Below, piece after piece: positions 11,105 through 51,000 of a DNA stretch of 64,000 nt. Each line of letters starts with the position of its first letter. Positions within the stretch are counted from its first letter, which is position 1. The notes beneath the pieces are model-generated. The model saw only the letters and a list, made by a program, of their open reading frames with translations. It ran no database searches and was not told the origin of the DNA. The stretch is from positions 32,860,001-32,924,000 of the forward strand of contig CATNEN010000038.1 of the NCBI GenBank assembly GCA_950097015.1, read 5' to 3'. The DNA comes from Macrostomum hystrix. Lineage: Eukaryota; Animalia; Platyhelminthes. Position numbers and translations under genes: made by a program.

Positions 11105-11987
11105 TCGCTTATCTCCACTGCCTCATCTCTACGTCTAAAATCCCCGTCTCATCTTTCCCCGTCTCATCTCCCTGTCTCATCTCTCCGTGTCTCATCTCTC
11201 CGTGTCTCATCTCTCCGTGTCTCATCTCTCCGTGTCTCATCTTTCCGTGTCTCATATCTCCGTGTCTCATCTCTCCCATGTCTTATCTCTCCGTGTCTCA
11301 TCTCTACGTCTAAACTCCCCTGTCTCATCTTTCCCCGTCTTATCTCCCTTTCTCATTTCTCCCTGACTTATATCTCCCCTGTCTCATCTATCCGTTTCTC
11401 ATCTCTCCTCTCTCTAATATCTCCCCTGTCTCATCTTTCCCCGTCTTATCTCCCTTTCTCATTTCTCCCTGACTTATATCTCCCTTGTCTCATCTATCCG
11501 TTTCTCATCTCTCCTCTCTCTAATATCTCCCCTGTCTCATCTTTCCCGTGTCCCATCTCTCCCGTGTCTCATCTCTCCCGTGTCTCATCTCTCCCGTGTC
11601 TCATCTCTCCCGTGTCTCATCTCTCATGTCTAATCTCCCCTGTCTTATCTCTCCCTGACTTATATCTCCCCTGTCTCATCTATCCGTTTCTCATCTCTCC
11701 CCTCTCTAACCTTTCCCCTGTCACATCTCTCCCGTGTCTCATCTCTCCCCTGTCACATCTCTCCCCTGTCTCATCTCTCCCCTGTTTCATCTCTCCCCTG
11801 TCACATCTCTCCCCTGTCACATCTCTCCCCTGTCACATCTTTCCCCTCTCTAACCTCTCCCCTGTCACATCTCTCCCCTGTCTCATCTCTCCCCTGTCTC
11901 ATCTCTCCCCTGTCACATCTCTCCCCTGTTTCATCTCTCCCCTGTCACATCTCTCCCCTGTCACATCTCTCCCCTGTCACATCTCTC
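11105..11987. repeat. 15-18-bp minisatellite (TGTCTCATCTCTCCC) in Elk intron 5
   Basis: Same family as 13746-14700. Confidence 0.95.
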
Positions 11988-12030
11988 AATTAGAGTTGGG
12001 CTTGATGGAGATTGCACAAGTTTCGCTCAC

Positions 12031-12292
12031 CAATGATAAACACCACTTCGACTAGCAAGTCGACAGCCACCCCAGCCTCCTCGCCGTCAGCCTGATGAGG
12101 TCGGCGCACTCGACTGCCTCCGCTGGCCGCATTGTAGGGCACCATGACGGCGATGTAGAAAGTGCAGAGCAAAATTAGCCAATCCCAGCTAATCTTTAGC
12201 AAGCCGTAGTGCAACAGAATGCAACTGGAGCGGCGAACCTCTTGCACTTTGTACTCCGGCAGCGCTGCCTTGCCTCTGAGACCGTGATGAAG
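12031..12292 (-). CDS. KCNH8: Elk/KCNH channel exon 5 (S1-S2)
   Basis: LPEYKVQEVRRSSCILLHYGLLKISWDWLILLCTFYIAVMVPYN..VDLLVEVVFII. Acceptor TTTTCAG, donor GTGAGC. Confidence 0.94.
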
Positions 12293-12314
12293 CTGAAAAA
12301 GGATGTTGCAATTG

Positions 12315-13288
12315 GTGTCTGAACGTAGAACAGGTTGTCTTTTTGTAGGACAGGGTGTCTGAATGCAGGACAGGGTGTCTTTGTATAGGACAGGGTGTCT
12401 TTTTGTAGGTCAGGGTGACGTTTTGAAGGTCAGGGTGACGTTTTGTAGGTCAGGGTGACGTTTTGTAGGTCAGGGTGACGTTTTGTAGGTCAGGGTGTCT
12501 TTTTGTGGGACAGGGTGTCTTTTTGTAGGACATGGTGTCTTTTTGTAGGACAGGGTGACTTTTTGTAGGTCAGGGTGTCTTTTTGTGGGACAGGGTGTCT
12601 TTTTGTAGGTCAGGGTGTCTTTTTGTGGGACAGGGTGTCTTTGTATAGGACAGGGTGTCTTTTTGTAGGTCAGGGTGACGTTTTGAAGGTCAGGGTGACG
12701 TTTTGTAGGTCAGGGTGACGTTTTGTAGGTCAGGGTGACGTTTTGTAGGTCAGGGTGTCTTTTTGTGGGACAGGGTGTCTTTTTGTAGGACATGGTGTCT
12801 TTTTGTAGGACAGGGTGACTTTTTGTAGGTCAGGGTGTCTTTTTGTGGGACAGGGTGTCTTTTTGTAGGTCAGGGTGTCTGAATGCAGGACAGGGTGTCT
12901 TTTTGTAGGTCAGGGTGACTTTTTGTAGGTCAGGGTGTCTTTTTGTAGGTCAGGGTGTCTGAATGCAGGACAGGGTGTCTTTTCGTGGGACAGGGTGTTT
13001 TTTAAGACGGTGTCTGAATTTTGGACAGGGTGTCTTTTTGTAACACCGGGTGTGTTTTTTAGGACAGGGTGACTTTTTGTAGGTCAGGGTGTCTGAATGC
13101 AGGACAGGGTGTCTTTTTGTGGGACAGGGTGTCTTTGTATAGGACAGGGTGTCTGAATGCTGGACAGTGTGTCTTTTTGTAGGACAGGGTGTTTTTTAAG
13201 ACGGTGTCTGAATTTTGGACAGGGTGTCTTTTTGTAACACCGGGTGTGTTTTTTAGGACAGGGTGTCTTTTTGCAGGGCAGGGTGTCT
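12315..13288. repeat. ~20-bp minisatellite (GGACAGGGTGTCTTTTTGTA) filling Elk intron 4
   Basis: Direct inspection. Confidence 0.96.
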
Positions 13289-13315
13289 AAAGTTAAGCCA
13301 TTGGTTAATATCTAC

Positions 13316-13677
13316 CTTGTTCAACTGGCTAAAGTGTTTGGTCTTATTGCGCGAATTAAACTGTCCACTGAGGTGATAGAGCACTGCTCTCGATCTCCGC
13401 CTTTTGTAACCGCCAGGGCCTAACAGTGCGGTCGATTGCTGCTGCTGCTGCTGCTGCTGCGAGTCAGTAGTTTTGATCGATTGATCACTGTCTTCGTCTT
13501 CACCAATGTCATGGTCAAAGTCCTTTGTCGACTTGTTCGATACAACCTGTCGATTAGACCAATTAGATAAAGAATATTGTTGTCTGCACCTGCTGCTGCT
13601 GCTGCCGGCTGCTGCTGCTAGCGAAGCTGTTACAGCTGGAGACGCTATGCCAGCTGTGGTCTGAATGTGCATGGACA
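13316..13677 (-). CDS. KCNH8: Elk/KCNH channel exon 4 (low-complexity linker with polyQ/polyA)
   Basis: Contains the Elk linker motif RRRSRAVLYHLSG. Donor GTAGAT. Acceptor CCGCAG fits the phase; a second in-phase AG lies about 24 nt downstream, so the 5' boundary is less certain. Confidence 0.8.
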
Positions 13678-13745
13678 CTGCGGTTGGTTTTTGTGAGAAT
13701 AAAGGTGCCATCGTGATTAACAATAAAAATACTTTTCAACTTAGC

Positions 13746-14700
13746 GTCTCTCATCTCTCATGTGTCTCATCTCTCCCGTGTCTCATCTCTCCCGTGTCTC
13801 ATCTCTCCCGTGTCTCATCTCTCCCGTGTCTCATCTCTCCCGTGTCTCATCTCTCCCGTGTCTCATCTCTCCTGTGTCTCATCTCTCCCGTGTCTCATCT
13901 CTCCCGTGTCTCATCTCTCCCGTGTCTCATCTCTCCCGTGTCTCATCTCTCCCCTGTCTCATCTCTCTCCTGTCTCATCTCTCTCCTGTCTCATCTCTCC
14001 CCTGTCTCATATTTCCCCTGTCTCATCTCTCTCCTGTCTCATCTCTCCCGTGTCTCATCTCTCCTGTCTCATCTCTCCCCTGTCTCATATTTCTCCTGTC
14101 TCATCTCTCTCCTGTCTCATCTCTCCCGTGTCTCATCTCTCCTGTGTCTCATCTCTACCGTGTCTCATCTCTCCCGTGTCTCATCTCTCCCGTGTCTCAT
14201 CTCTCCTGTGTCTCATCTCTCCCGTGTCTCATCTCTCCCGTGTCTCATCTCTCCCGTGTCTCATCTCTCCTGTGTCTCATCTCTCCCGTGTCTCATCTCT
14301 CCCGTCTCATATTTCCCCCAGTGTGTCTCATCTCTCTCCTGTCTCATCTCTCCCCTGTCTCATATTTCCCTGTCTCATCTCTCTCCTGTCTCATCTCTCC
14401 CGTGTCTCATCTCTCCTGTCTCATCTCTCCCGTGTCTCATCTCTCCCCTGTCTCATCTCTCCCGTGTCTCATCTCTCCACTGTCTCATCTCTCCCCTGTC
14501 TCATCTCTCCACTGTCTCATCTCTCCCGTGTCTCATCTCTCCTTGTGTCTCATCTCTCCCCTGTCTCATCTCTCCCGTGTCTCATCTCTCCCCTGTCTTC
14601 ATCTCTCCACTGTCTCATCTCTCCCGTGTCTCATCTCTCCTTGTGTCTCATCTCTCCCGTGTCTCATCTGTCCCGTGTCTCATCTCTTCCCTGTCTCATA
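13746..14700. repeat. 17-bp minisatellite (CTCATCTCTCCCGTGT-type) filling Elk intron 3
   Basis: Direct inspection. Confidence 0.96.
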
Positions 14701-14771
14701 TTTGAATGCACTAGAATGTACTAGAAATGCACTAATAATGCACTAGAATGTACTTTAACTCCATAGCTTAC

Positions 14772-14939
14772 GCATCTCGCCAGCAGCCGCCAGCAGTTTA
14801 CAGCCGCCCTCCTCTGAAGCTTCGTCGGCCAGACTGCGACTCTCCCTGGTGATGTCCTTGTGCGACGCCAGGAATAGCACCACTTCTCCTTTCTCGTTCT
14901 TGATTGGCACAATATCGAGTAGGCACAGGAACGGCTTGC
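14772..14939 (-). CDS. KCNH8: Elk/KCNH channel exon 3 (PAC motif)
   Basis: GKPFLCLLDIVPIKNEKGEVVLFLASHKDIT. Acceptor AACAG, donor GTAAGC, 168 nt, phase 1/1. Confidence 0.93.
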
Positions 14940-15052
14940 CTGTTTTTGTTCCGGTAAAAGTACATTGATAAACGTGCTGTATGCTGGCACAATTTGTAAC
15001 TGGTGCTAAGTTTTCAGTTCAGCCAATTAAAGAGACACTAAATAGTTAAAAA

Positions 15053-16227
15053 GGATAACAGGTGAGACACTGAATGATAACAGGTGAGACACTGAATGAT
15101 AACAGGTGAGACACTGAATGATAACAGGTGAGACACTGAATTATAACAGGTGAGACACTGAATGACAACAGGTGAGACACTGAATGATAACAGGTGAGAC
15201 ACTGAATGATAACAGCTGAGACACTGAAGGATAACAGGTGAGACACGGAATGATAACAGGTGAGACACTGAATGATAACAGGTGAGACACTGAATGATAA
15301 CAGGTGAAACACTGAATGATAACAGGTGAAACACTGAATGATAACAGGTGAGACACTGAATGATAACAGGTGAGACACTGAATGACAACAGGTGAGACAC
15401 TGAATGATAACAGGTGAGACACTGAATGATAACAGGTGAGACACGGAATGATAACAGGTGAGACACTGAAGGATAACAGGTGAGACACTGAATGACAACA
15501 GGTGAGACACTGAATGATAACAGGTGAGACACTGAATGATAACAGGTGAGACACGGAATGATAACAGGTGAGACACTGAATGATAACAGGTGAGACACTG
15601 AATGATAACAGGTGAGACACTGAATGATAACAGGTGAGACACTGAATGATAACAGGTGAGACACTGAATGATAACAGGTGAGACACTGAATGATAACAGG
15701 TGAAACACTGAATGATAACAGGTGAAACACTGAATGATAACAGGTGAGACACTGAATGATAACAGCTGAGACACTGAATGACAACAGCTGAGACACTGAA
15801 TGACAACAGGTGAGACACTGAATGATAACAGGTGAGACACTGAATGATAACAGGTGAGACACTGAAGGATAACGGGTGAGACACTGAAGTATAACAGGTG
15901 AGACACTGAATGATAACAGCTGAGACACTGAAGGATAACAGGTGAGACACTGAAGGATAACAGGTGAGACACTGAATGATAACAGCTGAGACACTGAATG
16001 ATAACGGGTGAGACACTGAATGACAACAGGTGAGACACTGAATGACAACAGGTGAGACACTGAATGACAACAGCTGAGACACTGAAGGATAACGGGTGAG
16101 ACACTGAATGATAACAGCTGAGACACTGAAGGATAACAGCTGAGACACTGAAGGATAACAGGTGAGACACTGAAGGATAACAGGTGAGACACTGAAGGAT
16201 AACGGGTGAGACACTGAAGTATAACAG
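15053..16227. repeat. 22-bp minisatellite (ATAACAGGTGAGACACTGAATG) in Elk intron 2
   Basis: About 53 units. Confidence 0.97.
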
Positions 16228-16361
16228 ACCAATGATTTTCAAATGAAAAGTTGTGGAGTCACTTAATTATGGAAGTGGATTCCCAAATCTTAGAGGAGGA
16301 TTCCCAATTCGTAGAAGAGGATTCCCAAATAGTAGGAGGGGATTCTCAATTCTCAACTCAC

Positions 16362-16592
16362 CGGCCTTGGTGTAGAAGATGACCTCGGTCTTCATCTCTG
16401 TCTTGTCCTTCAGGCTGGATTCGATCGCTTCAGTTGCCGCCGCCTCGGTGGCTTCGCCCCAGAGGAACTTGCAGGCGCAGCTGCGTGACATCACGCTGGC
16501 CCGGGAGAAGCCCGTCAGCTCGCAGAAGCCGTCGGAGCAGTACACAATGGGTCTTTCGGCTGCCTGGGCGTTGCCAAGCACGAAATTGCTGT
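16362..16592 (-). CDS. KCNH8: Elk/KCNH channel exon 2 (PAS domain)
   Basis: (H)SNFVLGNAQ..PIVYCSDGFCELTGFSRASVMSRSCACKFLWG. Acceptor TTCCAG, donor GTGAGT, phases match exons 1 and 3. Confidence 0.95.
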
Positions 16593-16619
16593 CTGGAATG
16601 ATTGAGAATTTCAATCGAA

Positions 16620-16950
16620 CAGGATTTACAATTTAGAAGTAGGATTTTTAATTTAGAAATGGGATTTTCAATTTAGAAATGGGATTTCCAATTTAGAAAT
16701 TGGATTTTCAATTTAGAAATGGGATTTCCAATTTAGAAATGGGATTTTCAATTTAGAAATGGGATTTCCAATTTAGAAATGGGATTTCCAATTTAGAAAT
16801 GGGATTTTCAATTTAGAAATTTAGAAATGGGATTTCCAATTTAGTAATTTAGAAATGGGATTTAGTATTAGGATTTCCAATTTCGATGATTGAGAAATGG
16901 ATACTGAAAATGCGATTACTGATTTAGAAAATGGGATTTCCAATTTAGCG
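16620..16950. repeat. 20-bp minisatellite (AATTTAGAAATGGGATTTCC)
   Basis: Direct inspection; next to the exon 2 acceptor. Confidence 0.9.
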
Positions 16951-17265
16951 ACAAAAATATTATTTTAATATTGAGGATTTCCGAAACTATAGTTTCTAAT
17001 GTTAAAAGAGAAATGGATGCAGAAGTTTTGGTAAGCTAAGCATTTTTGCATATTTCTTTTTCGCTACCACGTACAGAACGAGCAAAAAATATTTTTGTGT
17101 CCGGCAACATCGCATCGCTTGGTATGAAATGTGGGTGCACTTTTATACAGACAAGATAAGCGGTTTGTGACTTGATTTACGAGCAACACTGAATGCTTGT
17201 TATTGGGCGATTCAATCTTAGAGATATGGTATAATAGATCCAGAACTGAATGTAAATAGTTGTGC

Positions 17266-17468
<203 letters not shown>

Positions 17469-18044
17469 GGTTAGCAGCAGTTGTTTCCAAGTCATAAAAT
17501 ACAATTTGCCCACTCCTCCGCCTTAAGGCACATAGTTTCTGAAAAATTTCACTGCTTTTTGGACAAAATAATTTTGAAACAGCAACCTTGTGCAAGGAAT
17601 ATTGTATCATTGCGCGGATCCTGGCTATTTTAATCGCAGACTTCAAAGGCTGTTAGATTTTGCATCTATCAACAACAATTCAAGTCGCTATTTCAGCTAT
17701 CCAGGAAATCGTGATAAAAAAGCCTCTGTTTCTGTTGTTTTTGCCTCAAAAAACATCGGCAAGTTAACAGGACATTGTTTCTGCAGCTATTCAAAAGCAG
17801 AACAAAAAATATAGCAAGTAAAAGTCGCTAGTACTGAGAGAATTACCTGAAGTCCTGACAAAGCCAACACGCTATTCGCGAGTAGATACAACTCAGAATG
17901 CTTCCTAGGGGACTCATTTTTCATGTTATTGCTACTCAATTTAATTATGTTAAAGTCACTGCACGAGAATGGTTTTTATGGATGGATTTTTAAATAGAGT
18001 TTCTAAAGGCATTCTGCTTTTTCCTGCCATTTCTATTTATATCC

Positions 18045-18932
18045 TTGAGTCTGAGTACTTTTGTAAAACAGAGCGCTTTCGTGAATCAGAGAACTTTTGT
18101 GAATCAGAGCACTGTTGTGAATCAGAGTACTGTTGTGAATCAGAGAACTGTTGTGAATCAGAGAACTGTTGTGAATCAGAGCACTGTTGTGAATCAGAGT
18201 ACTGTTGTGAATCAGAGTACTGTTGTGAATCAGAGTACTGTTGTGAATCAGAGTACTGTTGTGAATCAGAGTACTGTTGTGAATCAGAGCACTGTTGTGA
18301 ATCAGAGAACTGTTGTGAATCAGAGTACTGTTGTGAATCAGAGTACTGTTGTGAATCAGAGTACTGTTGTGAATCAGAGCACTGTTGTGAATCAGAGTAC
18401 TGTTGTGAATCAGAGTACTGTTGTGAATCAGAGTACTGTTGTGAATCAGAGAACTGTTGTGAATCAGAGTACTGTTGTGAATCAGAGTACTGTTGTGAAT
18501 CAGAGAACTGTTGTGAATCAGAGAACTGTTGTGAATCAGAGCACTGTTGTGAATCAGAGTACTGTTGTGAATCAGAGTACTGTTGTGAATCAGAGAACTG
18601 TTGTGAATCAGAGTACTGTTGTGAATCAGAGCACTGTTGTGAATCAGAGTACTGTTGTGAATCAGAGTACTGTTGTGAATCAGAGTACTGTTGTGAATCA
18701 GAGTACTGTTGTGAATCAGAGAACTGTTGTGAATCAGAGTACTGTTGTGAATCAGAGTACTGTTGTGAATCAGAGTACTGTTGTGAATCAGAGAACTGTT
18801 GTGAATCAGAGTACTGTTGTGAATCAGAGCACTGTTGTGAATCAGAGTACTGTTGTGAATCAGAGTACTGTTGTGAATCAGAGTACTGTTGTGAATCAGA
18901 GTACTGTTGTGAGTCAGAGTACTGTTGTGAGT
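18045..18932. repeat. 18-bp minisatellite (GTGAATCAGAGTACTGTT) in Elk intron 1
   Basis: Units vary almost only at one position (T/A/C). Confidence 0.97.
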
Positions 18933-18977
18933 GATTGCTTTTGAATCATGTAAAATTTAGTCTATCAAAAGACTTAC

Positions 18978-19047
18978 GCGTGCCATCAAATCTAGTTGCT
19001 ATGGTATTCAGAAAAGTGTTCTGTGGAGCTAGAAGCCCTCTCGGCAT
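18978..19047 (-). CDS. KCNH8: Elk/KCNH8-like voltage-gated K+ channel, coding exon 1 (PAS-cap)
   Basis: Translates [23 protein letters not shown], the Elk-subfamily N-terminus. Donor GTAAGT, phase 1. Too short for the ORF track. Confidence 0.93.
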
Positions 19048-20466: not shown

Positions 20467-20524
20467 GTGAGGATATGGGTTGATGTGCGTGGCGAGTTAT
20501 GTCGAGACAAGGTTTAATGAGTCT

Positions 20525-20970
20525 ATAGATGTGCCTTCAGTAAATCGGTAGATGTGACTTCAGTAAATCGGTAGATGTGACTTCAGTAAATCGGTAGATG
20601 TGACTTCAGTAAATCGGTAGATGTGCCTTCAGAAAGTCGGTAGATGTGCCTTCAGTAAGTCAGTAGATGAGTGCTTAATGATTCTATATATGTGCTTTCA
20701 GTGAATCGATAGACATGCCTTCAGTAAGTCGGTAGATGTGCCTTCAGTAAGTCGGTAGATGTGCCTTCAGTATGTCGGTAGATGTGCCTCCATTAAGTCG
20801 GTAGATGTCCTTTCGGTTAGTCGATAGATATATTTTGTGCTTTTAATGCGTTTTTTCTATGTGCTTTAAATGGGTCAATAGATGTGCTTTTAAGTAAGTC
20901 GATAGATTTAGTCGATAGACTTAAAAAGCTTTCAATGAATCTAAAGATGTCTTTTAGTAAGTCGATAGAT
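20525..20970. repeat. 22-bp minisatellite (GTAGATGTGCCTTCAGTAAGTC-type) in the GILT intron
   Basis: Homogeneous at the 5' end, decaying 3'. Confidence 0.9.
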
Positions 20971-21232
20971 AGATAGAGTCGTCAGTTGAGGGAAATTCCT
21001 TAATTAGTTTTCCAACCGACAGCATTAACTCCCTCGAGGGTCCAAATCTAACTAGATTATTCTAATCTGATAACACACTCCCATAGAATCTGTTGAAAAA
21101 TTCAACATCTCAGGTGCGAAATTAAACATGAGATGTGTTCATGTGTATAAGCGTAGTTTCACGTGATACTACTTTAAGGATCTATGATAAGAATCCAATT
21201 AAATTCAGGCAATTTATTGTTCACACTAACAG

Positions 21233-22399: not shown

Positions 22400-22549
22400 C
22401 TGGAAATTGTTAGTAGCCAGCTAAATTGCGTTGCTGAACTCAGAACTCCAAGAAAATCGGCATAAAACTCGTGGCATGTGTGTGAAATGACGACAAAAAC
22501 TTATGAAATGTTAAATATATTGATTTAGTGGGTACCATAATGTATCACA

Positions 22550-23580: not shown

Positions 23581-23597
23581 AGTAATGCCAGACTCAC

Positions 23598-23842: not shown

Positions 23843-24458
23843 ATTACCTTTGTGCCAGATTATGTCAATCAGTTATTTCAGTTTTTAGGGTCTATAGTTA
23901 TGAGTCAAGTATTTCTTTATGTTTAATAGTCGCTTGCTTTTAAACTAGAAAGAAAAGTAATGAAAAGCCCGGCCTTATCTTGGCTAAGGCTTTCTATTTA
24001 ACTTCTATTATTTCATACCACATTCTAGACCCTAGCTAGCTGAGTATACACACTAAAATGAGTACAACATGTGCAAGCTGCAGATGTACGCCTCAAGCAA
24101 TGTACACAGATTTGGGTTGGGTTGGGCCTCTGCCAAAATTTACCGACATGCGGGCTGCATAGACACATCTATGGCAAGATCATTTTCGTTTTATCGTGTA
24201 GCTTTATTTCGCAGATGCAATCCAAGTTAACCCTTTGAAAAGTCGACTGTTGTTACAGAATAACTTTTTATGGATAGCTGTGAAAGTAAGAAGCGAAAGA
24301 AGATAAGAAACTGATTACTGGACGCTAGGAGAAAACCGATTGTAGATTTGACATAAGTAGATTCAAGATTGAAGAAAAATCGATGAAGTTTGTACTCGCA
24401 CAATTATCGGGATGATGCATTGGAGAATGGCCTACAAACAGTTGGCGAAAAAGAGAGA

Positions 24459-25659: not shown

Positions 25660-26152
<493 letters not shown>

Positions 26153-37300: not shown

Positions 37301-39881
37301 ATGACTGTCTGGATTCTAAGAAAACTGACGCAGATGCCATTCAGTTGTACCAGGAGCTCAGTCAATTGTGGGAGCGAGCTGGCATGCATGCCCGAAAGTG
37401 GATCTCTAACTCAAGAGAATTGCTTGCGCGTGTCGCCCCGGAGGATAGGGTCGCGGAGGTGAACCTGGATGGACAACCGTTGCCGGTTTCGAAGACGCTT
37501 GGAGTCGTCTGGAAAGGTGAAAACGATGAGTTCACCTTTGCTGCTGATGGCAAGTCGAGTCCAGTTAAGTCGAAGAGGGAGCTACTCAAGAGATTAGCGT
37601 CAGTTTACGATCCTCTCGGCCTCATTGCACCATTCACGGCACAGGCAAAAATTCTCCTTCAGGAGCTGTGGTGCAGCGGGCTTGACTGGGATGAAGCGCC
37701 GGATGAAGTCCTATAAAAGAGAATCCAAGCATGGTGCGACGACTTGGCGACTTTGAACTGCTTTCGAGTTGACCGTTGTCTGCAGCTCTCTATAGTGTGC
37801 CTACTCAGTCTCAGCTACACTGTTTCGTTGACGCTTCTGAAAAGGCCTACGGAGCGGTGTGCTATCTAAGATGCAAGTATGCCGACTTCTCAACATCCGT
37901 TCGTCTCATCGCGGCGAAGTCTCGAGTTGCACCCGTAGCAACCATGAGCATCCCGAGGCTGGAGCTAATGGCAGCAGTCGTTGGGCTTCATCTTACGGTC
38001 AAGATTGCCAAGGCGCTGGAGATCAACATCAAGGACGCAGTTTTCTGGTCCGACAGCATGAATGTCCTGTACTGGATTCGTGGCAGAGGCCGTTTCTTCA
38101 AGTCGTTCGTTGCGAATCGCGTCGGTGAAATCCAGCAGGCAACTGATCCGATTCAGTGGCGATACGTGCCGACAGCGTGCAATCCTGCGGATCTGCTGTC
38201 ACGAGGAGCCAAAATCAGTCAGCTGACCGAGGAGCAGACATGGAAGAGCGGTCCGGAGTTTCTGCATCAAGAGCAGTGCGCATGGCCAAGCACCGTGCTA
38301 GAGCGACCAGAGGGCCTAGAAACGCGGAATTCTAAGAAGAATTCAGTCGCGGCCGAGGTGGTCCTGAGTGCGAATCTTGTCAGCTGCGAGCAACGCAGAA
38401 CAATAGAACGGCTTGACCCGAGTAGGTTCTCAAGTTGGCTGCGCTTCTTGCGGTTGAATGCTTGGATCAGTCGGTTCGTCAACAACTGCCGTTTCGAACC
38501 ACAGCACCGAACTCGAGGAGAGCTACAACCGGCAGAGCTGGAGGATGCTGAGCTAAGAATCATCAAGGATGCTCAGCAAGATGCATTTAGTACGGAGCTT
38601 TCCGCTTTGAAGAAGAACAAGAGCGTTGTTGAGAGCAGCAAGCTGGCCGGCATGCATCCGAAAATCGATCCGAATGGCGTGATCCGCTCGGAGAGCCGAC
38701 TGCAGCGAGCCGAAGCACTGCCCTTTAGCACCCGATCGCCGATTATTTTGCCAAAGCACCATCCGGTGACAGAGCTGATCATCAAACACCACCACGAAAG
38801 AGCGTACCATGGCGGCACCAATCAAGTACTCGCAGCATTGACCGCGCGATTTTGGATTCCAGCAGGCCGTGAAGCCATTCGAGATTGGGAAGCTAAGTGT
38901 TCGGAGTGCAAGAGAAGAAGAGCCAAGCCAGCTTCGCAGTTAATGGCGCCATTGCCTCCAGATCGGCTAGAACCACTAAGAGCGTTCACGAAGGTGTCAG
39001 TGGATTTCGGCGGACCATTCCTGACGAAGCAGGGTCGAGGACGTGTTCGGCAGAAGCGTTACTTGACGCTCTTCACGTGCATGGCAACGCGTGCAGTCCA
39101 CTTGGAGATGGCGTACGGCCTTGATACGAGCAGTTTCCTTAATGCTCTATTTAGAATGATCAGCCGCCGAGGTCAGATTCAAGAAATATTTTCAGACAAT
39201 GGAACAAATTTCGTAGGAGCCGACAAAGAATTGAAAGCGCTGTGGAAGTCGGTGGACAAGAACGAATTGCAGTTGCGCACATGCCACATGCCGATCAAGT
39301 GGCATTTTAATCCACCTGCAGCTCCGCACTTCGGCGGTGTCCACGAGTCCATGATTAAGTCGGCAAAGAAAGCGATCAGTGCGATCCTGACAACAGCAGA
39401 AGTCAGCGATGAGGAGCTGGTGACAGCGTTTACGGGAGCTGAGTCGCTGTTGAACTCGCGGCCGTTGACATACCAGTCATCGCATCCGGGCGACGATCCT
39501 GTCCTGACGCCGGCGCATTTTCTGTACGGACACGTCGGCGGGCAGCTGGCACCGGAGATCGCAGCTGATGAGGCGTTCAATCCTACCAAGCGGTGGCGTT
39601 ACGTGCAGCAGCTGGTGAAGGCGTTCTGGCGTCGGTGGTTGCGAGAGTGGCTACCCGGCCTCGGAGCTAGGAGCAAGTGGCGGCGAGTGCAGCCCGACCT
39701 GAAGCCTGGCGATGTCGTTCTGTACGTCTGCCCTGACAGCCCGCGGGGACACTGGCCGCTGGCTCGAGTTCTGGAGGTGTACCCGGGCAGCGACGGCCAC
39801 GTGCGAGTAGCGAAGGTGCAAGTGGCGGATAGGATGCTGATCAGGCCTATCAACAAGCTGTGCCCATTGATAACTTATTGA
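34375..39881 (+). pseudogene. BEL/Pao gag-pol polyprotein broken by a premature TAA (37714-37716) and a frameshift near 37790
   Basis: CVVCKEPHELWKC, CFRCLGHGHSAMNC, LLDDAS, YYLPHFPV, YMDD, HCFVDAS, VDFGGP, SDNGTNF. Pao-like sequence continues past the stop (KRIQAWCDDLATLNCFRVDRC) and then switches frame. Confidence 0.92.
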
Positions 39882-40655
39882 ATTTGAGTGAACTAATGAC
39901 TGATCAATTTATGGACTGCAAACTTTTCGAGAGTTTTGTGTTGAAGTTAAAGTTACTGTTTGACTTTGTGAGGTAGTGTTTTTTCGAGTGTTTATTGTGT
40001 TCAGGGTTTAATGTGTCGGCCCATTGAGACATCTGCGCGTCCACGGCGAATTGTTAACAGGTTGTCGGTTTAAAATTTTGCGTTTTTCATTATCTTCGCC
40101 AAAGTTATATACGAAGTGTTTCAAGTGATTATGTTTCTACTCGTACTTTACTAAATTAGTGAGAGTTCAGTTGCTTTCAATTTGCTTGCAATTGTTAAAA
40201 AAAAATGAGTCATGCACTTTATTTGCTTAATTGCACTGTACTTTTCAGTAACAGTTTGGTGGCGGTGAATCTTTGTTTACAATTTTGCTCGTTTTTTCGC
40301 TTATTATTCATTTGCTTCAGTTTAATTAAATATTTGTCGTTTTCAATCAATGTAATTTAGCTTTCATTAAAAAATTTCTAACGTTTAGGCTATATTTTGC
40401 TTCCACTGCAACTAAATTTTGACGTTCTATGTTGACGCTAACTAGATTTCCCGTTTGCGGTTTTTTGTTTAGCTAAAGTTAAATTGTCCAATCTAATTGT
40501 TCCGGTGCCGTTGCAACGTATTTAGTCATTAGTGTTCACTTGCAACGGGCCTTGCTACACCTATCTAGCTTCCACTGCGCACGTATCAATGATTCTTGTA
40601 CTACAGTATTGAATGCAAGTCAGGTTTTGCCATAGACATGTCAAGGTGGGGAGTA

Positions 40656-40945
40656 TGGTTTAAAGAGTATGTTTCAATATATTATTATTTTTTATTATTT
40701 GAAATTTATTGCACGCGTACTCAATTTCTACCCCCCATGCGCTGAGTCATTTTCTCTCTGGCGGCAACTCATTCTTGGACTTCAGCATGTACGTTTATTT
40801 GCCCACCCCAATTAAATTGATTTAAATAGACTACTGGTCGTTAGCAGCGCTGAGAGTGACCGCGTCGTTTATAGCCTATAGTTTCAACGCTCAATTGACG
40901 GCCTACTTAGTTTCTTTTCAATAGTTGAGAACAAGCTCACAAACA
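40656..40945 (+). repeat. 3' LTR
   Basis: Copy of the 5' LTR, preceded by the purine tract AAGGTGGGGAGTA (40643-40655). Confidence 0.96.
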
Positions 40946-41057
40946 TGTGCAGTCCCCACCTGCTAGTGTGCCTGACACACAAGACCTGCACTGGCCCTTG
41001 GGTCTTGTGTCAAATTATTATTATTATTGTATAGCGATGTTCAGCAATGGTTCTCAC

Positions 41058-41226: not shown

Positions 41227-41289
41227 CTGCCGTAATACGAATCGTTTGAGAAGTACTAAGAGTGAGTGCTTTGCTTGTAAATAGAAATA

Positions 41290-41800
<511 letters not shown>

Positions 41801-41825
41801 CATAAATGTGTTGAACTGCTCAAAC

Positions 41826-42532: not shown

Positions 42533-42717
42533 GAACTCTGTGTTTTACAGATTGGCAGCTTCCACTAAACCCTAATTGGCTATTATCGTTTTCTAGATTA
42601 TTTAAGCATGAAATCAAACTAGTCACATGCTTCAGCTCCAGTTTAATTTGAGCAGAACTGTCTGATAATACACGAAATACTGGTTAACAAATGGGCAACT
42701 CTTATTCCTTCAGCCAC

Positions 42718-43340
42718 AGTGCCTGAAGTCCCGAGGGACAGTGCCTGAATCTGGGTGACAGTGCCTGAATCTGAGGGACAGTGCCTGAATCTGGGTGACA
42801 GTGCCTGAATCTGGGTGACAGTGCCTGAATCTGAGGGACAGTGCCTGAATCTGGGTGACAGTGCCTGAATCTGGGTGACAGTGCCTGAATCTGGGTGACA
42901 GTGCCTGAATCTGGGTGACAGTACCTGAATCTGGGTGACAGTGCCTGAATCTGGGTGACAGTGCCTGAATCTGAGGGACAGTGCCTGAATCTGAGGGACA
43001 GTGCCTGAATCTGGGTGACAGTGCCTGAATCTGGGTGACAGTGCCTGAATCTGAAGGACAGTGCCTGAAGACCTGAGGGACAGTGCCTGAAGACCTGAGG
43101 GACAGTGCCTGAAGACCTGAGGGACAGTGCCTGAAGACCTGAGGGACAGTTCCTGAAGACCTGAGGGACAGTTCCTGAAGACCTGAGGGACAGTGCCTGA
43201 AGACCTGAGGGACAGTGCCTGAAGACCTGAGGGACAGTGCCTGAAGACCTAAGGGACAGTGCCTGAAGACCTGAGGGACAGTTCCTGAAGACCTGAGGGA
43301 CAGTGCCTGAAGACCTGAGGGACAGTGCCTGAAGACCTGA
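42718..43340. repeat. 20/21-bp minisatellite (GACAGTGCCTGAATCTGGGT then GACAGTGCCTGAAGACCTGAGG-type)
   Basis: Two sub-arrays that switch near 43065. Confidence 0.96.
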
Positions 43341-43961
43341 AGGATCTGCTGCCCCAACCGGATTCAAAGTAATATTTATCTTCTGTTTAATCTATTCGTC
43401 ATGACTGTACCTGCGAAGCGAATTGTTTTCCTGAAGTCCCACAAAACGAATAGGAAAATAGTCTTTAGCAGGCCATCAACAACGGTGACACGATGGTAAT
43501 GATTCTTTGCTCGGGCGAGCATGGAATCAGTTCCACAGTCGTCTCATTAACATTTCTGCCTGAATTAATATTTGCGCAAAAGCAAAGCAAAAAGAATAAA
43601 AAGGGAGACAAACAAAAGCGCAAATTGGGAGAAAATCTAAATCTGCCTAGAAAAATCTCCCTATCGCTTCAGATCCTCTTTTTTTCGACGACAGGCCAGT
43701 GTGGCACGCAAATTCTCAATCCTTGAGAGGATTCGAATGGATTATTAATAATGCGCCCCGATTCATCATCCAATCTGTCAGATTTTTTTCCAACCTGAGG
43801 GGTCTAAGCCTTTGCTAATTGTACTGCTCAGTAATTAGGGACTGAATGTTGTGCATACTTTTTGTTTTACACCTACATTTACATAGTTATGCATCTTACT
43901 TACTTCAATAGCTCATGGACTCAAGTACTGTGTTGCGCTTCTCAGCAGGTCGTACTTTTCA

Positions 43962-44210
43962 GCTCCCACTTATCTAATCTCACCAAGGTCTATTATCCCA
44001 CTATCTCATATCACTATGGTCTAATCTCCCACTATCTAATCTCACCGTGGTCTGATCTCCCACTATCTAATCTCACCGTGGTCTGATCTCCCACTATCTA
44101 TTCTCACCCTGGTCTATTATCCCACTATCTAATCTCACCTTGGTCTATTATCCCACTATCTAATCTCACCCTAGTCTAATCTCCCACTATCTCACTTCAC
44201 TCTGATCTAA
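43962..44210. repeat. ~30-bp minisatellite (CCCACTATCTAATCTCACCGTGGTCTGATC-type)
   Basis: About 8 degenerate units. Confidence 0.88.
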
Positions 44211-44374
44211 TCTACCTTTCTAATCTTTGTTTTTCTTTTTGTCGAAGCAAGCGAAACAAAACCCTAAGGATGCTCTTAAGTTCGTTCTAGCTCGCGACGA
44301 GCACATAATTAGTTTCTCTGCCTAACATTTTTCACGGGGACTCTGGCGCACTTGTCTCGACAGTCCTAAATCCA

Positions 44375-44388: not shown

Positions 44389-44759
44389 CCCGGGGGGACA
44401 GAATGAGAGGAGTGCAAAATTGACCCAGAGGGAGGTGGGTGGGCGATTGTTCGAACGAATCCCGAGTCCAGGACACGAACCTGGGAGGAATCGGACAGGG
44501 GCAGAGGGAGAGATGTGTGGCAGATTAAGAGGCCGTGTGAGCCGGTCGATTTGTTAAGCGCAGGCTTCTAAAAATTTTTTCAGTGGCACTTTCTCCCGTT
44601 GTTGTCGAATTTCGTCATTGACAGATTTTGTCAAAGTGAAATCGAGGCCTGTAATAATTTAGAGTAATAAAATTATCAGGTAAAATTTTGCTTAACTTTG
44701 AGTTCTATGTTAAACTAGTTTTATCTGTTAGACAGGAGACAACTCAAACATATGAGCTA

Positions 44760-46388
44760 GTATGTTAGACACTCGAGTTACCTGTTAGATAATAAAGTCA
44801 CCTACCTGTTAGACACTCGAGCTACCTGTTAGATAATAAAGTCACCTACCTGTTAGACACTCGAGTTACCTGTTAGATAATAAAGTCACCTACCTGTTAG
44901 ACACTCGAGTTACCTGTTAGATAATAAAGTCACCTACCTGTTAGACACTAGAGTCACCTGTTAGACACTAGAGTCACCTGTTAGACACTAGAGTCACCTG
45001 TTAGACACTAGAGTCACCTGTTAGACACTAGAGTCATCTGTTAGACACTAGAGTCACCTGTTAGACACTAGAGTCATCTGTTAGACACTAGAGTCACCTG
45101 TTAGACACTAGAGTCACCTGTTAGACACTAGAGTCACCTACCTGTTAGACACTAGAGTCATCTGTTAGACACTAGAGTCACCTGTTAGACACTAGAGTCA
45201 TCTGTTAGACACTAGAGTCACCTACCTGTTAGACACTAGAGTCATCTGTTAGACACTAGAGTCACCTGTTAGACACTAGAGTCATCTGTTAGACACTAGA
45301 GTCACCTACCTGTTAGACACTAGAGTCATCTGTTAGACACTAGAGTCACCTGTTAGACACTAGAGTCACCTACCTGTTAGACACTAGAGTCACCTACCTG
45401 TTAGACACTAGAGTCACCTACCTGTTAGACACTAGAGTCATCTGTTAGACACTAGAGTCACCTGTTAGACACTAGAGTCACCTACCTGTTAGACACTAGA
45501 GTCACCTACCTGTTAGACACTAGAGTCACCTACCTGTTAGACACTAGAGTCACCTACCTGTTAGACACTAGAGTCACCTGTTAGACACTAGAGTCACCTG
45601 TTAGACACTAGAGTCACCTACCTGTTAGACACTAGAGTCACCTACCTGTTAGACACTAGAGTCACCTACCTGTTAGACACTAGAGTCACCTGTTAGACAC
45701 TAGAGTCACCTACCTGTTAGACACTAGAGTCACCTGTTAGACACTAGAGTCATCTGTTAGACACTAGAGTCACCTACCTGTTAGACACTAGAGTCATCTG
45801 TTAGACACTAGAGTCACCTGTTAGACACTAGAGTCATCTGTTAGACACTAGAGTCACCTACCTGTTAGACACTAGAGTCATCTGTTAGACACTAGAGTCA
45901 CCTGTTAGACACTAGAGTCACCTACCTGTTAGACACTAGAGTCACCTACCTGTTAGACACTAGAGTCACCTACCTGTTAGACACTAGAGTCACCTGTTAG
46001 ACACTAGAGTCACCTACCTGTTAGACACTAGAGTCACCTACCTGTTAGACACTAGAGTCACCAACCTGTTAGACACTAGAGTCATCTGTTAGACACTAGA
46101 GTCACCTACCTGTTAGACACTAGAGTCACCTGTTAGACACTAGAGTCATCTGTTAGACACTTGAGTCATCTGTTAGACACTAGAGTCACCTACCTGTTAG
46201 ACACTAGAGTCACCTACCTGTTAGACACTAGAGTCACCTGTTAGACACTAGAGTCACCTACCTGTTAGACACTAGAGTCACCTGTTAGACACTAGAGTCA
46301 CCTGTTAGACACTAGAGTCACCTGTTAGACACTAGAGTCACCTGTTAGACACTAGAATCACCTACCTGTTAGACTCTAGAGTCACCTT
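44760..46388. repeat. 20/24-bp minisatellite (CACCTGTTAGACACTAGAGT, with or without ACCT)
   Basis: Direct inspection. Confidence 0.97.
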
Positions 46389-46758
46389 TTGGGTATGAGT
46401 TGCATGTTAACCGATTTCAGTCGTTAAACTTGAATTTAACGATATGACAGCTAAGTTGAGATAAGAATCATTAATTCGAGTACTTATGTCTGTTATAAAT
46501 TATAATAAGTGCAAATCAGATAACGAATGATCCAACTAAAGTTAAGGTAGATTTCCTAAAAGTACACAGGTGGCACCTAACACGCAGAAATGCTCAGTTC
46601 GGGTGCATGATCACGAGAAGCTCTTTTGCAGTTCGAAATTAAACTTAAAATGGCGCCACTGCAGAGACCAAGGAGAGTTCAGTGCGAATGTGAATTCTGA
46701 ATGAATCGAATACACTGAAGTACCTGAAGTTTTCCATTTAGTTACCCCCCATTTACCC

Positions 46759-47396
46759 CTGAAGGACCTGAGGCTGTTGATTGTGACTCACTGAAGGACC
46801 TGAGGCTGTTGGTTGTGACTCACTGAAGGACCTGAGGCTGTTGATTGTGACTCACTGAAGGACCTGAGGCTGTTGATTGTGACTCACTGAAGGACCTGAG
46901 GCTGTTGATTGTGACTCACTGAAGGACCTGAGGCTGTTGATTGTGACTCACTGAAGGACCTGAGGCTGTTGATTGTGACTCACTGAAGGACCTGAGGCTG
47001 TTGATTGTGACTCACTGAAGGACCTGAGGCTGTTGATTGTGACTCACTGAAGGACCTGAGGCTGTTGATTGTGACTCACTGAAGGACCTGAGGCTGTTGA
47101 TTGTGACTCACTGAAGGACCTGAGGCTGTTGATTGTGACTCACTGAAGGACCTGAGGCTGTTGATTGTGACTCACTGAAGGACCTGAGGTTGTTGATTGT
47201 GACTCACTGAAGGACCTGAGGCTGTTGATTGTGACTCACTGAAGGACCTGAGGCTGTTGATTGTGACTCACTGAAGGACCTGAGGCTGTTGATTGTGACT
47301 CACTGAACGACCTGAGGTTGTTGATTGTGACTCACTGAAGGACCTGAGTTTGTTGATTGTGACTCACTGAACGACCTGAGGCTGTTGATTGTGACT
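46759..47396. repeat. 32-bp minisatellite (CTGAAGGACCTGAGGCTGTTGATTGTGACTCA)
   Basis: About 20 near-identical units. Confidence 0.97.
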
Positions 47397-47471
47397 AGGA
47401 AAATTTATTTTTATCTTTACTAGCTACAATGAAAGATTTTCATCACTTGCAGACTCCACTACTCAAAAGGC

Positions 47472-47580: not shown

Positions 47581-47654
47581 GTGAGCTTTCTTGTCGCAGA
47601 AATTCATTTCTTAGAATTTTTCAGGATACAATTAAAATTGCTTCAACGTTGCAG

Positions 47655-47696
47655 ATACAACCCGACAGCCTCGACCCGGGGAAGTCGACGGAAAAG
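47655..47696 (+). CDS. GUK1: Guanylate kinase exon 2
   Basis: (H)[13 protein letters not shown](D), the GK signature. 42 nt, phase 1/1. Confidence 0.93.
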
Positions 47697-47792
47697 GTTC
47701 GGTAACTGAAACATTAATTTTGGATAGGATATCATCACCCAATTACGAGTATTACTAATACTAATATTATTTTTTTATTGAATTACTGGCAG

Positions 47793-48031
47793 ATTATTTC
47801 TTCACTGACCGGGCCACAATGCTGTCGATGATATCAAGAGGCGATTTCATAGAAAGTGCCGAATTCTCGGGCAACTTCTATGGCACAAGCCAGGCGGCCG
47901 TGGCAGCTGTGGCCGAGGCTGGCAAAATCTGCCTCCTAGACGTTGACACTCAGGGTGTCAAGACGTTGAAGCGACAGTCGGAGCTTCACCCGAAGTACGT
48001 CTTCATCATGCCACCATCTGTGGAAGTACTG
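47793..48031 (+). CDS. GUK1: Guanylate kinase exon 3; the rest of the gene lies beyond the window
   Basis: DYFF..FIESAEFSGNFYGTS..ICLLDVDTQGV..YVFIMPPSVEVL. Donor GTAAAT. Confidence 0.95.
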
Positions 48032-48077
48032 GTAAATAGAAAATTTGAAAATAGTTTTTTCATGCAAGTAGTGGGTT

Positions 48078-51000
48078 TTTAAACTAGCGATTTTCTAAAC
48101 TAGCGACATTCAGTAACTAGCGATTTTCAGTAACTAGCGATTTTCAGTAACTAGCGATTTTTAGTAACTAGCGATTTTCTAAACTAGCGATTTTCTAAAC
48201 TAGCGATTTTCTAAACTAGCGGCATTCAGTAACTAGCGATTTTCAGTAACAATCGATTTTCAGTAACTTTCGATTTTCTAAACTAGCGACATTCAGTAAC
48301 TAGCGATTTTCAGTAACTATCGATTTTCAGTAACTAGCGATTTTCAGTAACTAGCGATTTTCAGTAACTAGCGATTTTCAGTAACTAGCGATTTTCTAAA
48401 CTAGCGACATTCAGTAAATAGCGATTTTCAGTAACTAGCGATTTTCAGTAACAATCGATTTTCAGTAACTATCGATATTCAGTAACTAGCGATTTTCTAA
48501 ACTAGCGATTTTCTAAACTAGAGATTTTCTAAACTAGCGATTTTCTCAACTAGCGACATTCAGTAACTAGCGATTTTCAGTAACTAGCGATTTTCCGTAA
48601 CTAGCGATTTTCAGTAACTAGCGATTTTCAGTTACTAGCGATTTTCAGTAACTAGCGATTTTCAGTAACTAGCGATTTTTAGTAACTAGCGATTTTCTAA
48701 ACTAGCGATTTTCTAAACTAGCGATTTTCTAAACTAGCGATTTTCTAAACTAGCGATTTTCTCAACTAGCGACATTCAGTAACTAGCGATTTTCAGTAAC
48801 TAGCGATTTTCAGTAACTAGCGATTTTCAGTAACTAGCGATTTTCAGTAACTAGCGATTTTCAGTAACTAGCGATTTTCAGTAACTAGCGATTTTCAGTA
48901 ACTAGCGATTTTCAGTAACTAGCGATTTTTAGTAACTAGCAATTTTCTAAACTAGCGATTTTCTAAACTAGCGACATTCAGTAACTAGCGATTTTCAGTA
49001 ACTAGCGATTTTCAGTAACTAGCGATTTTCAGTAACTATCGATATTCAGTAACTAGCGATTTTCTAAACTAGCGATTTTCTAAACTAGAGATTTTCTAAA
49101 CTAGCGATTTTCTCAACTAGCGACATTCAGTAACTAGCGATTTTCAGTAACTAGCGATTTTCCGTAACTAGCGATTTTCAGTAACTAGCGATTTTCAGTT
49201 ACTAGCGATTTTCAGTAACTAGCGATTTTCAGTAACTAGCGATTTTTAGTAACTAGCGATTTTCTAAACTAGCGATTTTCTAAACTAGCGATTTTCTAAA
49301 CTAGCGATTTTCTAAACTAGCGATTTTCTCAACTAGCGACATTCAGTAACTAGCGATTTTCAGTAACTAGCGATTTTCAGTAACTAGCGATTTTCAGTAA
49401 CTAGCGATTTTCAGTAACTAGCGATTTTCAGTAACTAGCGATTTTCAGTAACTAGCGATTTTCAGTAACTAGCGATTTTCAGTAACTAGCGATTTTTAGT
49501 AACTAGCAATTTTCTAAACTAGCGATTTTCTAAACTAGCGACATTCAGTAACTAGCGATTTTCAGTAACTAGCGATTTTCAGTAACTAGCGATTTTCAGT
49601 AACTAGCGATTTTCAGTAACTAGCGATTTTCAGTAACTAGCGATTTTCTAAACTAGCGATTTTCTAAACTAGCGACATTCAGTAACTAGCGATTTTCAGT
49701 AACTAGCGATTTTCAGTAACTAGCGATTTTCAGTAACTAGCGATTTTCAGTAACTAGCGATTTTCAGTAACTAGCGATTTTCAGTAACTAGCGATTTTCA
49801 GTAACTAGCGATTTTCAGTAACTAGCGATTTTCAGTAACTAGCGATTTTCTAAACTAGCGATTTTCTAAACTAGCGACATTCAGTAAATAGCGATTTTCA
49901 GTAACTAGCGATTTTCAGTAACAATCGATTTTCAGTAACTAGCGATTTTCTAAACTAGCGATTTTCTAAACTAGCGATTTTCTAAACTAGCGACATTCAG
50001 TAACTAGCGATTTTCAGTAACTATCGATATTCAGTAACTAGCGATTTTCTAAAATAGCGATTTTCTAAACTAGCGATTTTCTAAACTAGCGACATTCAGT
50101 AACTAGCGATTTTCAGTAACTAGCGATTTTCAGTAACTAGCGATTTTTAGTAACTAGCGATTTTCAGTAACTAGCGATTTTCAGTAACTAGCGATTTTCA
50201 GTAACTAGCGATTTTCAGTAACTAGCGATTTTCAGTAACTAGCGATTTTCTAAACTAGAGATTTTCTTAACTAGCGATTTTCTAAACTAGCGATTTTCTC
50301 AACTAGCGACATTCAGTAACTAGCGATTTTCAGTAACTAGCGATTTTCAGTAACTAGCGATTTTCAGTAACTAGCGATTTTCAGTAACTAGCGATTTTCA
50401 GTAACTAGCGATTTTCTAAACTAGCGACATTCAGTAACTAGCGATTTTCAGTAACTATCGATTTTCAGTAACTAGCGATTTTCTAAACTAGCGATTTTCT
50501 AAACTAGCGATTTTCTAAACTAGCGACATTCAGTAACTAGCGATTTTCAGTAACTAGCGATTTTCAGTAACTAGCGATTTTTAGTAACTAGCGTTTTTCA
50601 GTAACTAGCGATTTTCAGTAACTAGCGATTTTCAGTAACTAGCGATTTTTAGTAACTAGCAATTTTCTAAACTAGCGATTTTCTAAACTAGCGACATTCA
50701 GTAACTAGCGATTTTCAGTAACTAGCGATTTTCAGTAACTAGCGATTTTTAGTAACTAGCGATTTTCAGTAACTAGCGATTTTCAGTAACTAGCGATTTT
50801 CAGTAACTAGCGATTTTTAGTAACTAGCGATTTTCAGTAACTAGCGATTTTCAGTAACAATCGATTTTCCGTAACTATCGATATTCAGTAACTAGCGATT
50901 TTCAGTAACAAGCGATTTTCAGTAACTAGCGATTTTCAGTAACTAGCGATTTTCAGTAACTAGCGATTTTCAGTAACTAGCGATTTATAGTAACTAGCGA

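What the first reader, a model, noticed from the sequence alone, without database searches (positions are those of the whole stretch)
11105..48100. Intron inflation: long introns look like short introns filled by their own minisatellite starting just after the 5' splice site
Seen, approximate distance from donor GT to the nearest array: Elk i1 45 nt, i2 10 nt (short GGATTCCCAA repeat), i3 70, i4 27, i5 43; GILT 58; EGF gene 17; ZIP i1 25-30, i4 14, i5 90-120; GUK i3 46. Removing the array leaves about 50 nt in Elk i4, 50-70 nt in ZIP i4 and 90 nt in ZIP i1, similar to the array-free GUK introns (74 and 96 nt). Unit lengths and sequences mostly differ between introns and arrays never enter exons. 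Inference: a local, possibly transcription/splicing-coupled process amplifies intron sequence in place. The alternative is that arrays survive only in introns and short founder introns force the proximity.
Basis: partly seen in the sequence, partly recalled or inferred. Interest (0 to 1): 0.8.

Follow-up and report, generated by a model that had tools for sequence, protein, structure and literature searches.

The report
Minisatellite-swollen short introns in a flatworm
In this stretch of a flatworm genome many introns are tiny remnants swollen by their own tandem repeat, which likely grew on the spot and sits near both intron ends mostly because the original introns were likely short, a pattern resembling the 'sequence stuttering' described in birds rather than a new splicing-linked process.

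Summary
The window is from a Macrostomum-like flatworm. Of 15 complete introns over 300 nt, 11 hold arrays and 7 shrink to 59-179 nt once the arrays are removed. ZIP i4 collapses to a 71-nt founder between two copies of one edge variant.

The generalisation fails for the other 8: remnants of 0.4-7.3 kb, a nested gene, a Pao retrotransposon, and array-free introns of 365-663 nt.

Donor specificity is weak. The array is nearer the donor in 8 of 11 introns (p 0.11), asymmetry p is 0.07-0.30, and a GUK 5'UTR intron newly found from spliced contigs has its nearest array closer to the acceptor. There is no strand bias or polarity. Arrays also cover 33% of spacer DNA, and one unit is shared by two introns.

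Best reading: locally born minisatellites, expanded by recombination and kept out of exons and splice signals by selection. This works like avian 'intronic stuttering'. A leftover excess of arrays in short-remnant introns (p 0.003-0.08, post hoc) keeps an exon-edge-linked origin open. This scan noted similar patterns earlier in other animal genomes. No genome was available for the decisive test.

The parts
290..19047 (-). Elk/KCNH8-like potassium channel gene. Coding exons 18978-19047, 16362-16592, 14772-14939, 13316-13677, 12031-12292; exon 6 at 105-289; the gene continues beyond the window start.
   Evidence: tblastn with M. lignano P0008; open frame on joining. The i3 junctions fall in a poorly conserved stretch and rest on frame and GT-AG only.
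16593..18977 (-). Elk intron 1: three arrays (18053-18930 18-bp, 17266-17468 ATCT, 16622-16948 20-bp); 47 nt from donor, 29 nt from acceptor; remnant 982 nt
14940..16361 (-). Elk intron 2: 81-nt repeat 16272-16352 and 22-bp array 15054-16227; remnant 167 nt
13678..14771 (-). Elk intron 3: 16-bp array 13745-14699 plus a 51-nt repeat 14704-14754; remnant 88 nt; unit shared with the first array of intron 5
12293..13315 (-). Elk intron 4: 20-bp array 12325-13288 with a 253-nt exact block duplication; remnant 59 nt
290..12030 (-). Elk intron 5 (11.7 kb): six arrays (11141-11987, 8968-10603, 8321-8587, 8085-8283, 6565-7372, 5433-6099) and a nested TMTC gene on the other strand
665..4702 (+). TMTC-family O-mannosyltransferase gene nested in Elk intron 5; its introns (630 and 663 nt) have no array
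20467..21232 (+). GILT intron: 23-bp array 20526-20907; 59 nt from donor, 325 nt from acceptor; remnant about 400 nt
22400..23597 (-). Intron of a small predicted gene with an EGF-like cysteine pattern: arrays 22798-23577 and 22539-22777; remnant 159-179 nt
   Evidence: Gene model from sequence only: no homolog, no Pfam hit for exon 1.
24455..26154 (.). Two arrays (24455-25251, 25660-26154) between the ZIP stop and the EGF-like start; not assigned to an intron, UTR introns not excluded
26656..28098 (-). ZIP intron 5: 17-bp array 26679-27974, 23 nt from the acceptor and 85-124 nt from the donor
28287..32472 (-). ZIP intron 4: 23-bp array of about 180 copies; one rare edge variant stands at both ends and once inside, implying a founder intron of 71 nt
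32987..33351 (-). ZIP intron 3, 365 nt, no array
33522..41057 (-). ZIP intron 2 (7.5 kb): inflated by a Pao/BEL LTR retrotransposon (about 34001-40945, LTRs 99% alike, 5-bp target duplication); no array
41227..41825 (-). ZIP intron 1: TAC/TAA array 41291-41796; remnant 93 nt; junction seen in spliced contigs of 3 of 4 runs laid
42716..44213 (.). Two arrays (42716-43333, 43963-44213) between the ZIP 5' end (about 42206) and the first GUK exon (inferred from about 44576): intergenic as far as seen
44680..47452 (+).
   Evidence: loose ends of spliced contigs of X4 and X2 match the window up to 44676
47581..47792 (+). GUK introns 1 and 2 (74 and 96 nt), no array
   Evidence: joints in contigs
48032..64000 (+). 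GUK intron 3, open-ended: 17-bp array of about 950 copies from 48082 to the window end; the next exon is not in the window

Best explanation
These are locus-specific minisatellites that were likely born in place from a 10-33-nt piece of non-coding DNA, likely grew by recombination-type copying, and lie close to splice sites mainly because the founder introns were likely only 60-180 nt long. Step 1 (inferred): a short local duplication by slippage or repair makes the first copies, in introns and between genes alike. Step 2 (shown as a product; mechanism inferred): blocks of many units are re-copied, as unequal crossover or gene conversion would do, while the edge units decay. Step 3 (inferred): selection removes arrays that enter exons, the first ~9 nt after a donor or the last ~20 nt before an acceptor, so each array is boxed into its intron. 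Occasionally a unit is carried to a neighbouring intron. Other fillers (a Pao retrotransposon, SINE-like repeats, a nested gene) lengthen other introns. The arrays are likely tolerated passengers.
For: 7 of 11 array-bearing complete introns leave 59-179 nt, and remnant lengths do not differ from array-free introns (Mann-Whitney p 0.66). ZIP i4 has the same rare 20-nt variant at intron positions 16, 2776 and 4131 of 4186, so a 71-nt founder. 8 of 18 units match their own flanks better than all control flanks (Fisher p 0.001), 2 of them between genes. Exact multi-unit block duplications: 253 nt with 7 different unit words in Elk i4, 279 nt with 11 in the GUK UTR intron. Smallest gaps are 9 nt at donors and 21-23 nt at acceptors. 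There is no significant donor-versus-acceptor asymmetry once the acceptor signal is allowed for (6 of 11; p 0.07-0.30), no strand bias (8 of 23) and no polarity (7 of 12). 4 arrays cover 2161 of 6611 nt between genes. Spliced contigs skip array-bearing introns at single GT-AG junctions at the two sites tested.
Against: Arrays are over-represented per base in short-remnant introns: 8 in 1084 nt versus 12 in 7195 nt (p 0.0025; 0.009 allowing 50 nt per array; threshold-free p 0.013-0.08). Uniform birth per base does not predict this. Donor distances are smaller than random placement gives (p 0.003-0.03 with all arrays; 0.09 for main arrays only). Introns have more arrays per unique kb than spacers (2.4 versus 0.9; p 0.04). 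Flank matches could be decayed array edges and not founder sequence. 10 of 18 units show no flank match.
Confidence: 0.62

Rival explanations
1. Array birth is tied to exon edges, most often the donor side: polymerase pausing, spliceosome assembly, R-loops or breaks in the nucleosome linker beside exons would raise the rate of local duplication, giving about one array per intron whatever its length.
For: Per-intron rather than per-base distribution (p 0.003-0.08). Donor distances of 9-59 nt in 9 of 11 complete introns, including three with remnants of 0.4-3 kb (Elk i1 47, Elk i5 43, GILT 59). Random-placement p 0.003-0.09.
Against: Asymmetry is not significant after allowing for the acceptor signal. 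ZIP i5, Elk i1 and the GUK UTR intron are acceptor-nearer. Seven introns have no array. G-rich sense strand in only 8 of 23 and no polarity. Arrays of the same kind lie between genes. The tests are post hoc on the introns that prompted the idea.
Confidence: 0.2
2. Erosion: the founder introns were longer, and unstable arrays deleted or overwrote the unique DNA around them until they met splice signals, so short remnants are a result and not a starting point.
For: It explains the excess of arrays in short-remnant introns and the closeness to both ends. The mouse PAR preprint reports introns shorter than the human orthologs and full of minisatellites (10.1101/2022.03.26.485930, passages).
Against: Array-free introns of 74, 96 and 145 nt exist here, so short founders need no erosion. 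ZIP i4 reads as a plain 71-nt intron with one unit.
Confidence: 0.12
3. The arrays are members of dispersed repeat families or pieces of mobile elements that landed in introns.
For: Elk i3 and i5 share a unit with a 72-nt exact match. Several other arrays share one to five recurrent 9-mers.
Against: Only 2 of the 27 arrays compared share more than 10% 12-mer cover, and they share it with each other. No dispersed element flanks an array in the masked self-BLAST of the window.
Confidence: 0.06

Closest known systems
Sequence stuttering (intronic type) on avian dot chromosomes, Hron et al. 2026, PMC12954441 (read: abstract, the results section on local repeat expansion, discussion, first part of methods; supplements not seen)
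   Same: [quoted passage not shown] The authors propose repair or meiotic gene conversion, not splicing.
   Different: Here an invertebrate, with arrays of GC 0.26-0.60 and GC3 of about 0.5-0.7 in the five genes read in frame, so no extreme GC. Interspersed repeats are present. No exon copies were found. Length polymorphism was not testable. The paper reports the pattern in birds and gerbil GC-rich genes only.
Minisatellite-filled introns of the mouse pseudoautosomal region (bioRxiv 10.1101/2022.03.26.485930; passages read)
   Same: Most introns occupied by tandem repeats; attributed to frequent recombination and unequal crossover; repeats in intergenic DNA too.
   Different: The PAR is dominated by one family (mo-2), with short genes and very high exon GC; here the units are mostly private and introns are lengthened.
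'Mirage' minisatellites of amphioxus (Adh3, globins BflGb6 and BflGb9; PMC3087553, passages read) and the human F7 intron 7 VNTR (PMC1557585, search listing only)
   Same: Tandem arrays beside splice sites that do not disturb splicing.
   Different: Mirage units span the exon-intron boundary; here no unit contains exon sequence or the genuine splice site.
Tandem-repeat-rich genome of Macrostomum lignano (PMC5730564, passages) and repeat totals for three Macrostomum species (PMC10468722, passages; supplement not readable)
   Same: Simple and tandem repeats are 15% of the M. lignano assembly, so abundant arrays are expected in the genus.
   Different: This window is 43-58% array, well above those averages. 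The passages read do not relate arrays to intron structure.

Membership tests
Sequence stuttering (Hron 2026) | [quoted passage not shown] | tested here: met
   11 of 18 complete introns hold arrays, covering 38-99% of each
Sequence stuttering (Hron 2026) | Blocks confined to single introns, exons intact | tested here: met
   No array over 100 nt overlaps an exon; joined exons give open frames
Sequence stuttering (Hron 2026) | Local origin of the repeated unit | tested here: inconclusive
   Units mostly private within the window and 8 of 18 match their own flanks, but Elk i3 and i5 share one, and no genome was available to count copies elsewhere
Sequence stuttering (Hron 2026) | Extensive length variation between individuals | not testable with these tools
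Sequence stuttering (Hron 2026) | Occasional copies of exon edges in the neighbouring intron | tested here: inconclusive
   The paper's blastn-short screen on 6 genes found no exon-edge copy; the only hits above the shuffled maximum were CAG runs matching the nested gene. The paper finds it in 3.4% of dot-chromosome introns, so none among 18 is expected.
Mirage minisatellites | Unit spans an exon-intron boundary | tested here: not met
   Arrays begin 9 nt or more after the donor and end 21 nt or more before the acceptor; no exon sequence in units
Recombination-hotspot minisatellite domains (PAR, dot chromosomes) | Region of high recombination with GC-rich exons | tested here: inconclusive
   GC3 about 0.5-0.7, far below the PAR extremes; recombination rate and chromosomal position unknown

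The most novel reading that the evidence does not exclude
In this flatworm lineage an exon-edge-linked mutational process seeds about one private minisatellite per intron, preferentially within 60 nt of the donor and without high GC, making tandem amplification the main engine of intron growth and giving a transgenic invertebrate model in which 'sequence stuttering' can be tested.
Probability: 0.18. Interest if true: 0.7.

Novelty: new member of a known kind. Interest (0 to 1): 0.32.

Why it matters
Intron-confined private arrays were described in 2026 as a nearly bird-specific, GC-linked instability. A clear case in a moderate-GC flatworm suggests the pattern is a general result of short founder introns in a genome prone to minisatellites. 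Macrostomum has transgenesis (PMC5730564), so length change and splicing tolerance could be tested directly. If the small excess of arrays at exon edges holds genome-wide, it would tie repeat birth to gene architecture; the window alone does not show that.

Tried and rejected
No whole genome is held, so the genome-wide test could not be run. The run search listed no holder on record as RNA; X4, X2, X3 and X9 nevertheless gave spliced contigs. X10 laid nothing. X2, coded as another organism, was 99%+ identical on both stretches laid, so it gave no sister-species intron. Arrays could not be compared between runs because only array-free stretches were laid. Two metagenome scans for more Macrostomum DNA found nothing. 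The EGF-like gene has no homolog among proteins of 44-142 residues (longer ones not searched).

Rejected: mirage or exon-stuttering origin; G-rich sense-strand (R-loop) bias, 8 of 23; 5'-3' polarity of decay, 7 of 12; the idea that the ZIP-GUK arrays are all intergenic (two are in a UTR intron) or all intronic (ZIP contigs of X2 and X3 stop at 42206). Results under five TRF settings varied: donor-nearer 6 of 10 to 9 of 12, combined p 0.02-0.16. GUK i3 was left out of paired tests because its acceptor is outside the window. The nested TMTC gene and the LTR element were removed from remnant lengths before the placement tests.

Literature: the search for minisatellite + intron + Macrostomum found 0 papers; eight other searches listed no paper on this pattern in flatworms. 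The 2015 M. lignano genome paper is not held and might describe it. PMC4039745 (passages) concerned alternative splicing motifs and was not used.
Full report
Source and genes. The best protein hits are from Macrostomum lignano: 81% for ZIP exon 4 and 71% for Elk exon 5. The window is therefore from a Macrostomum-like flatworm; the species was not determined. No whole genome is held. I fixed 17 introns by GT-AG ends and homolog alignments; joined exons give open frames for Elk, ZIP, GILT, TMTC, the EGF-like gene and GUK. Pfam supports GILT, guanylate kinase and TMTC. The EGF-like gene rests on sequence alone, and the Elk i3 junctions lack homolog support. Elk exon 6 lies at 105-289, so Elk i5 is 11.7 kb and holds a TMTC gene on the other strand.

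Transcript evidence. Contigs of X4 and X2 skip GUK i1 (74 nt); X4, X9 and X2 skip i2 (96 nt). X4 leaves the window at donor 48032 for an exon that is not in the window, so the 15.9-kb array lies in GUK i3 if the transcript comes from this locus. X4 and X2 also join 44679 to 47453, revealing an 18th intron: a 2773-nt GUK 5'UTR intron with two arrays that had looked intergenic. ZIP i1 is confirmed in 3 of 4 runs laid. ZIP contigs of X2 and X3 stop at 42206, X3 with a 21-letter tail that is not in the window and that resembles a cDNA template-switch primer (recalled, not from a call). I therefore treat arrays 42716-43333 and 43963-44213 as intergenic; this is a weak hint from contigs.

The observation. 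Arrays make up 47% of the finding's span and 58% of the window, against 15% simple and tandem repeats in M. lignano (PMC5730564, passages). Of 18 complete introns 11 have arrays. Of the 15 over 300 nt, 7 leave 59-179 nt, 4 leave 0.4-7.3 kb, and 4 have no array; one of these, ZIP i2, is inflated by a recent Pao retrotransposon. So 'long intron = short intron + own minisatellite' holds for about half.

Is it the donor? Donor distances are 47, 9, 17, 27, 43, 59, 20, 29, 25, 124, 83; acceptor distances 29, 114, 67, 32, 902, 325, 139, 64, 35, 23, 56. The donor is nearer in 8 of 11 (p 0.11), or 6 of 11 after subtracting 6 and 20 nt for the signals. Random placement in stripped introns makes the donor distances somewhat too small (p 0.003-0.03; 0.004-0.034 leaving one intron out, and 0.09 when the two arrays under 100 nt are dropped). 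The asymmetry is p 0.05 and 0.014 with little or nothing protected at the acceptor, 0.07 and 0.14 with 20 or 30 nt protected, and 0.30 for main arrays only. The sense strand is G-rich in 8 of 23 intronic arrays and the 5' end is the more decayed in 7 of 12, so neither an R-loop signature nor a direction of growth shows.

Introns versus spacers. Four arrays cover 2161 of 6611 nt between genes (33%), 0.9 per unique kb against 2.4 in introns (p 0.04). Against introns with remnants over 200 nt the difference vanishes (p 0.32). The spacers include promoters and UTRs, and two of the four arrays could still lie in UTR introns. The clearest leftover is that short-remnant introns carry 8 arrays in 1084 nt against 12 in 7195 nt (p 0.0025; threshold-free 0.013-0.08 depending on how much founder sequence is credited to each array). 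Uniform birth per base does not explain this. Exon-edge-linked birth, erosion of unique DNA, recent mobile-element filling of the medium introns, or the post hoc choice of this window could.

How the arrays arose. In ZIP i4 a rare 20-nt variant stands at intron positions 16, 2776 and 4131 of 4186; collapsing from first to last leaves 71 nt, the size of GUK i1. Eight of 18 units match their own flanks better than any control flank, two of them between genes; this may be founder sequence or decayed edge. Exact duplications of multi-variant blocks (253 nt in Elk i4, 279 nt in the GUK UTR intron) point to recombination-type copying (mechanism inferred). Units are mostly private: of 27 arrays compared, only Elk i3 and the first array of Elk i5 overlap strongly (94% and 65% 12-mer cover, 72-nt exact match), which shows at least one transfer between introns or a shared source. 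No unit copies exon sequence.

Comparison with what is known. The pattern works like intronic 'sequence stuttering' (Hron et al. 2026, PMC12954441; abstract, one results section, discussion and part of the methods read; supplements not seen). Two features are met, two are inconclusive, and length polymorphism was not testable, so membership is provisional. That paper reports the pattern in birds and GC-rich gerbil genes and proposes repair or meiotic conversion. Mouse PAR introns are a second parallel (bioRxiv 10.1101/2022.03.26.485930, passages). It is not a mirage array (PMC3087553, passages). These are unchecked AI notes and not evidence. Nine paper searches listed no description of the pattern in flatworms; the 2015 M. 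lignano genome paper could not be read and a supplement on repeat classes was unreadable, and either may bear on novelty.

Verdict. A real and striking region: a new member of a known kind in a new lineage. In-place inflation is partly supported; coupling to the 5' splice site is not shown (about 0.2). Interest 0.32.

Noticed in passing
window 665-4702 (+) inside 290-12030 (-): A complete TMTC-family gene is nested on the opposite strand in Elk intron 5.
   Followed up: yes
window 34001-40945: Young Pao/BEL LTR retrotransposon in ZIP intron 2, antisense to ZIP; LTRs 99% alike, 5-bp target duplication; its coding region is in two ORFs (34375-37716, 37776-39881).
   Followed up: partly
window 48082-64000: A 17-bp array of about 950 copies in GUK intron 3 carries 511 pyrimidine-CAG words on the sense strand, yet the X4 contig joins the donor to an exon beyond the window.
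   Followed up: partly
window 44375-44388: A perfect 14-bp palindrome about 190 nt upstream of the first GUK exon; it resembles an RFX X-box of ciliary genes (recalled, not tested).
   Followed up: no
window 2774-3171, 19426-19586, 21623-21859: A dispersed SINE-like repeat in three places (an inverted pair in TMTC intron 2); the two array-free spacers each hold a copy.
   Followed up: partly
window 15054-16227 and 46759-47396: Donor-like GTRAG words occur 41 and 19 times on the antisense strand of these arrays and never on their sense strand; across 14 intronic arrays sense copies number 5 and antisense 62. Too few independent units to test.
   Followed up: partly
window 8968-10603 and 11141-11987: Neighbouring arrays in Elk intron 5 share five recurrent 9-mers in opposite orientation.
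   Followed up: no
window 22270-23842 (-): Small predicted secreted or membrane protein with one EGF-like cysteine pattern split by the intron; no homolog found at similar length.
   Followed up: partly
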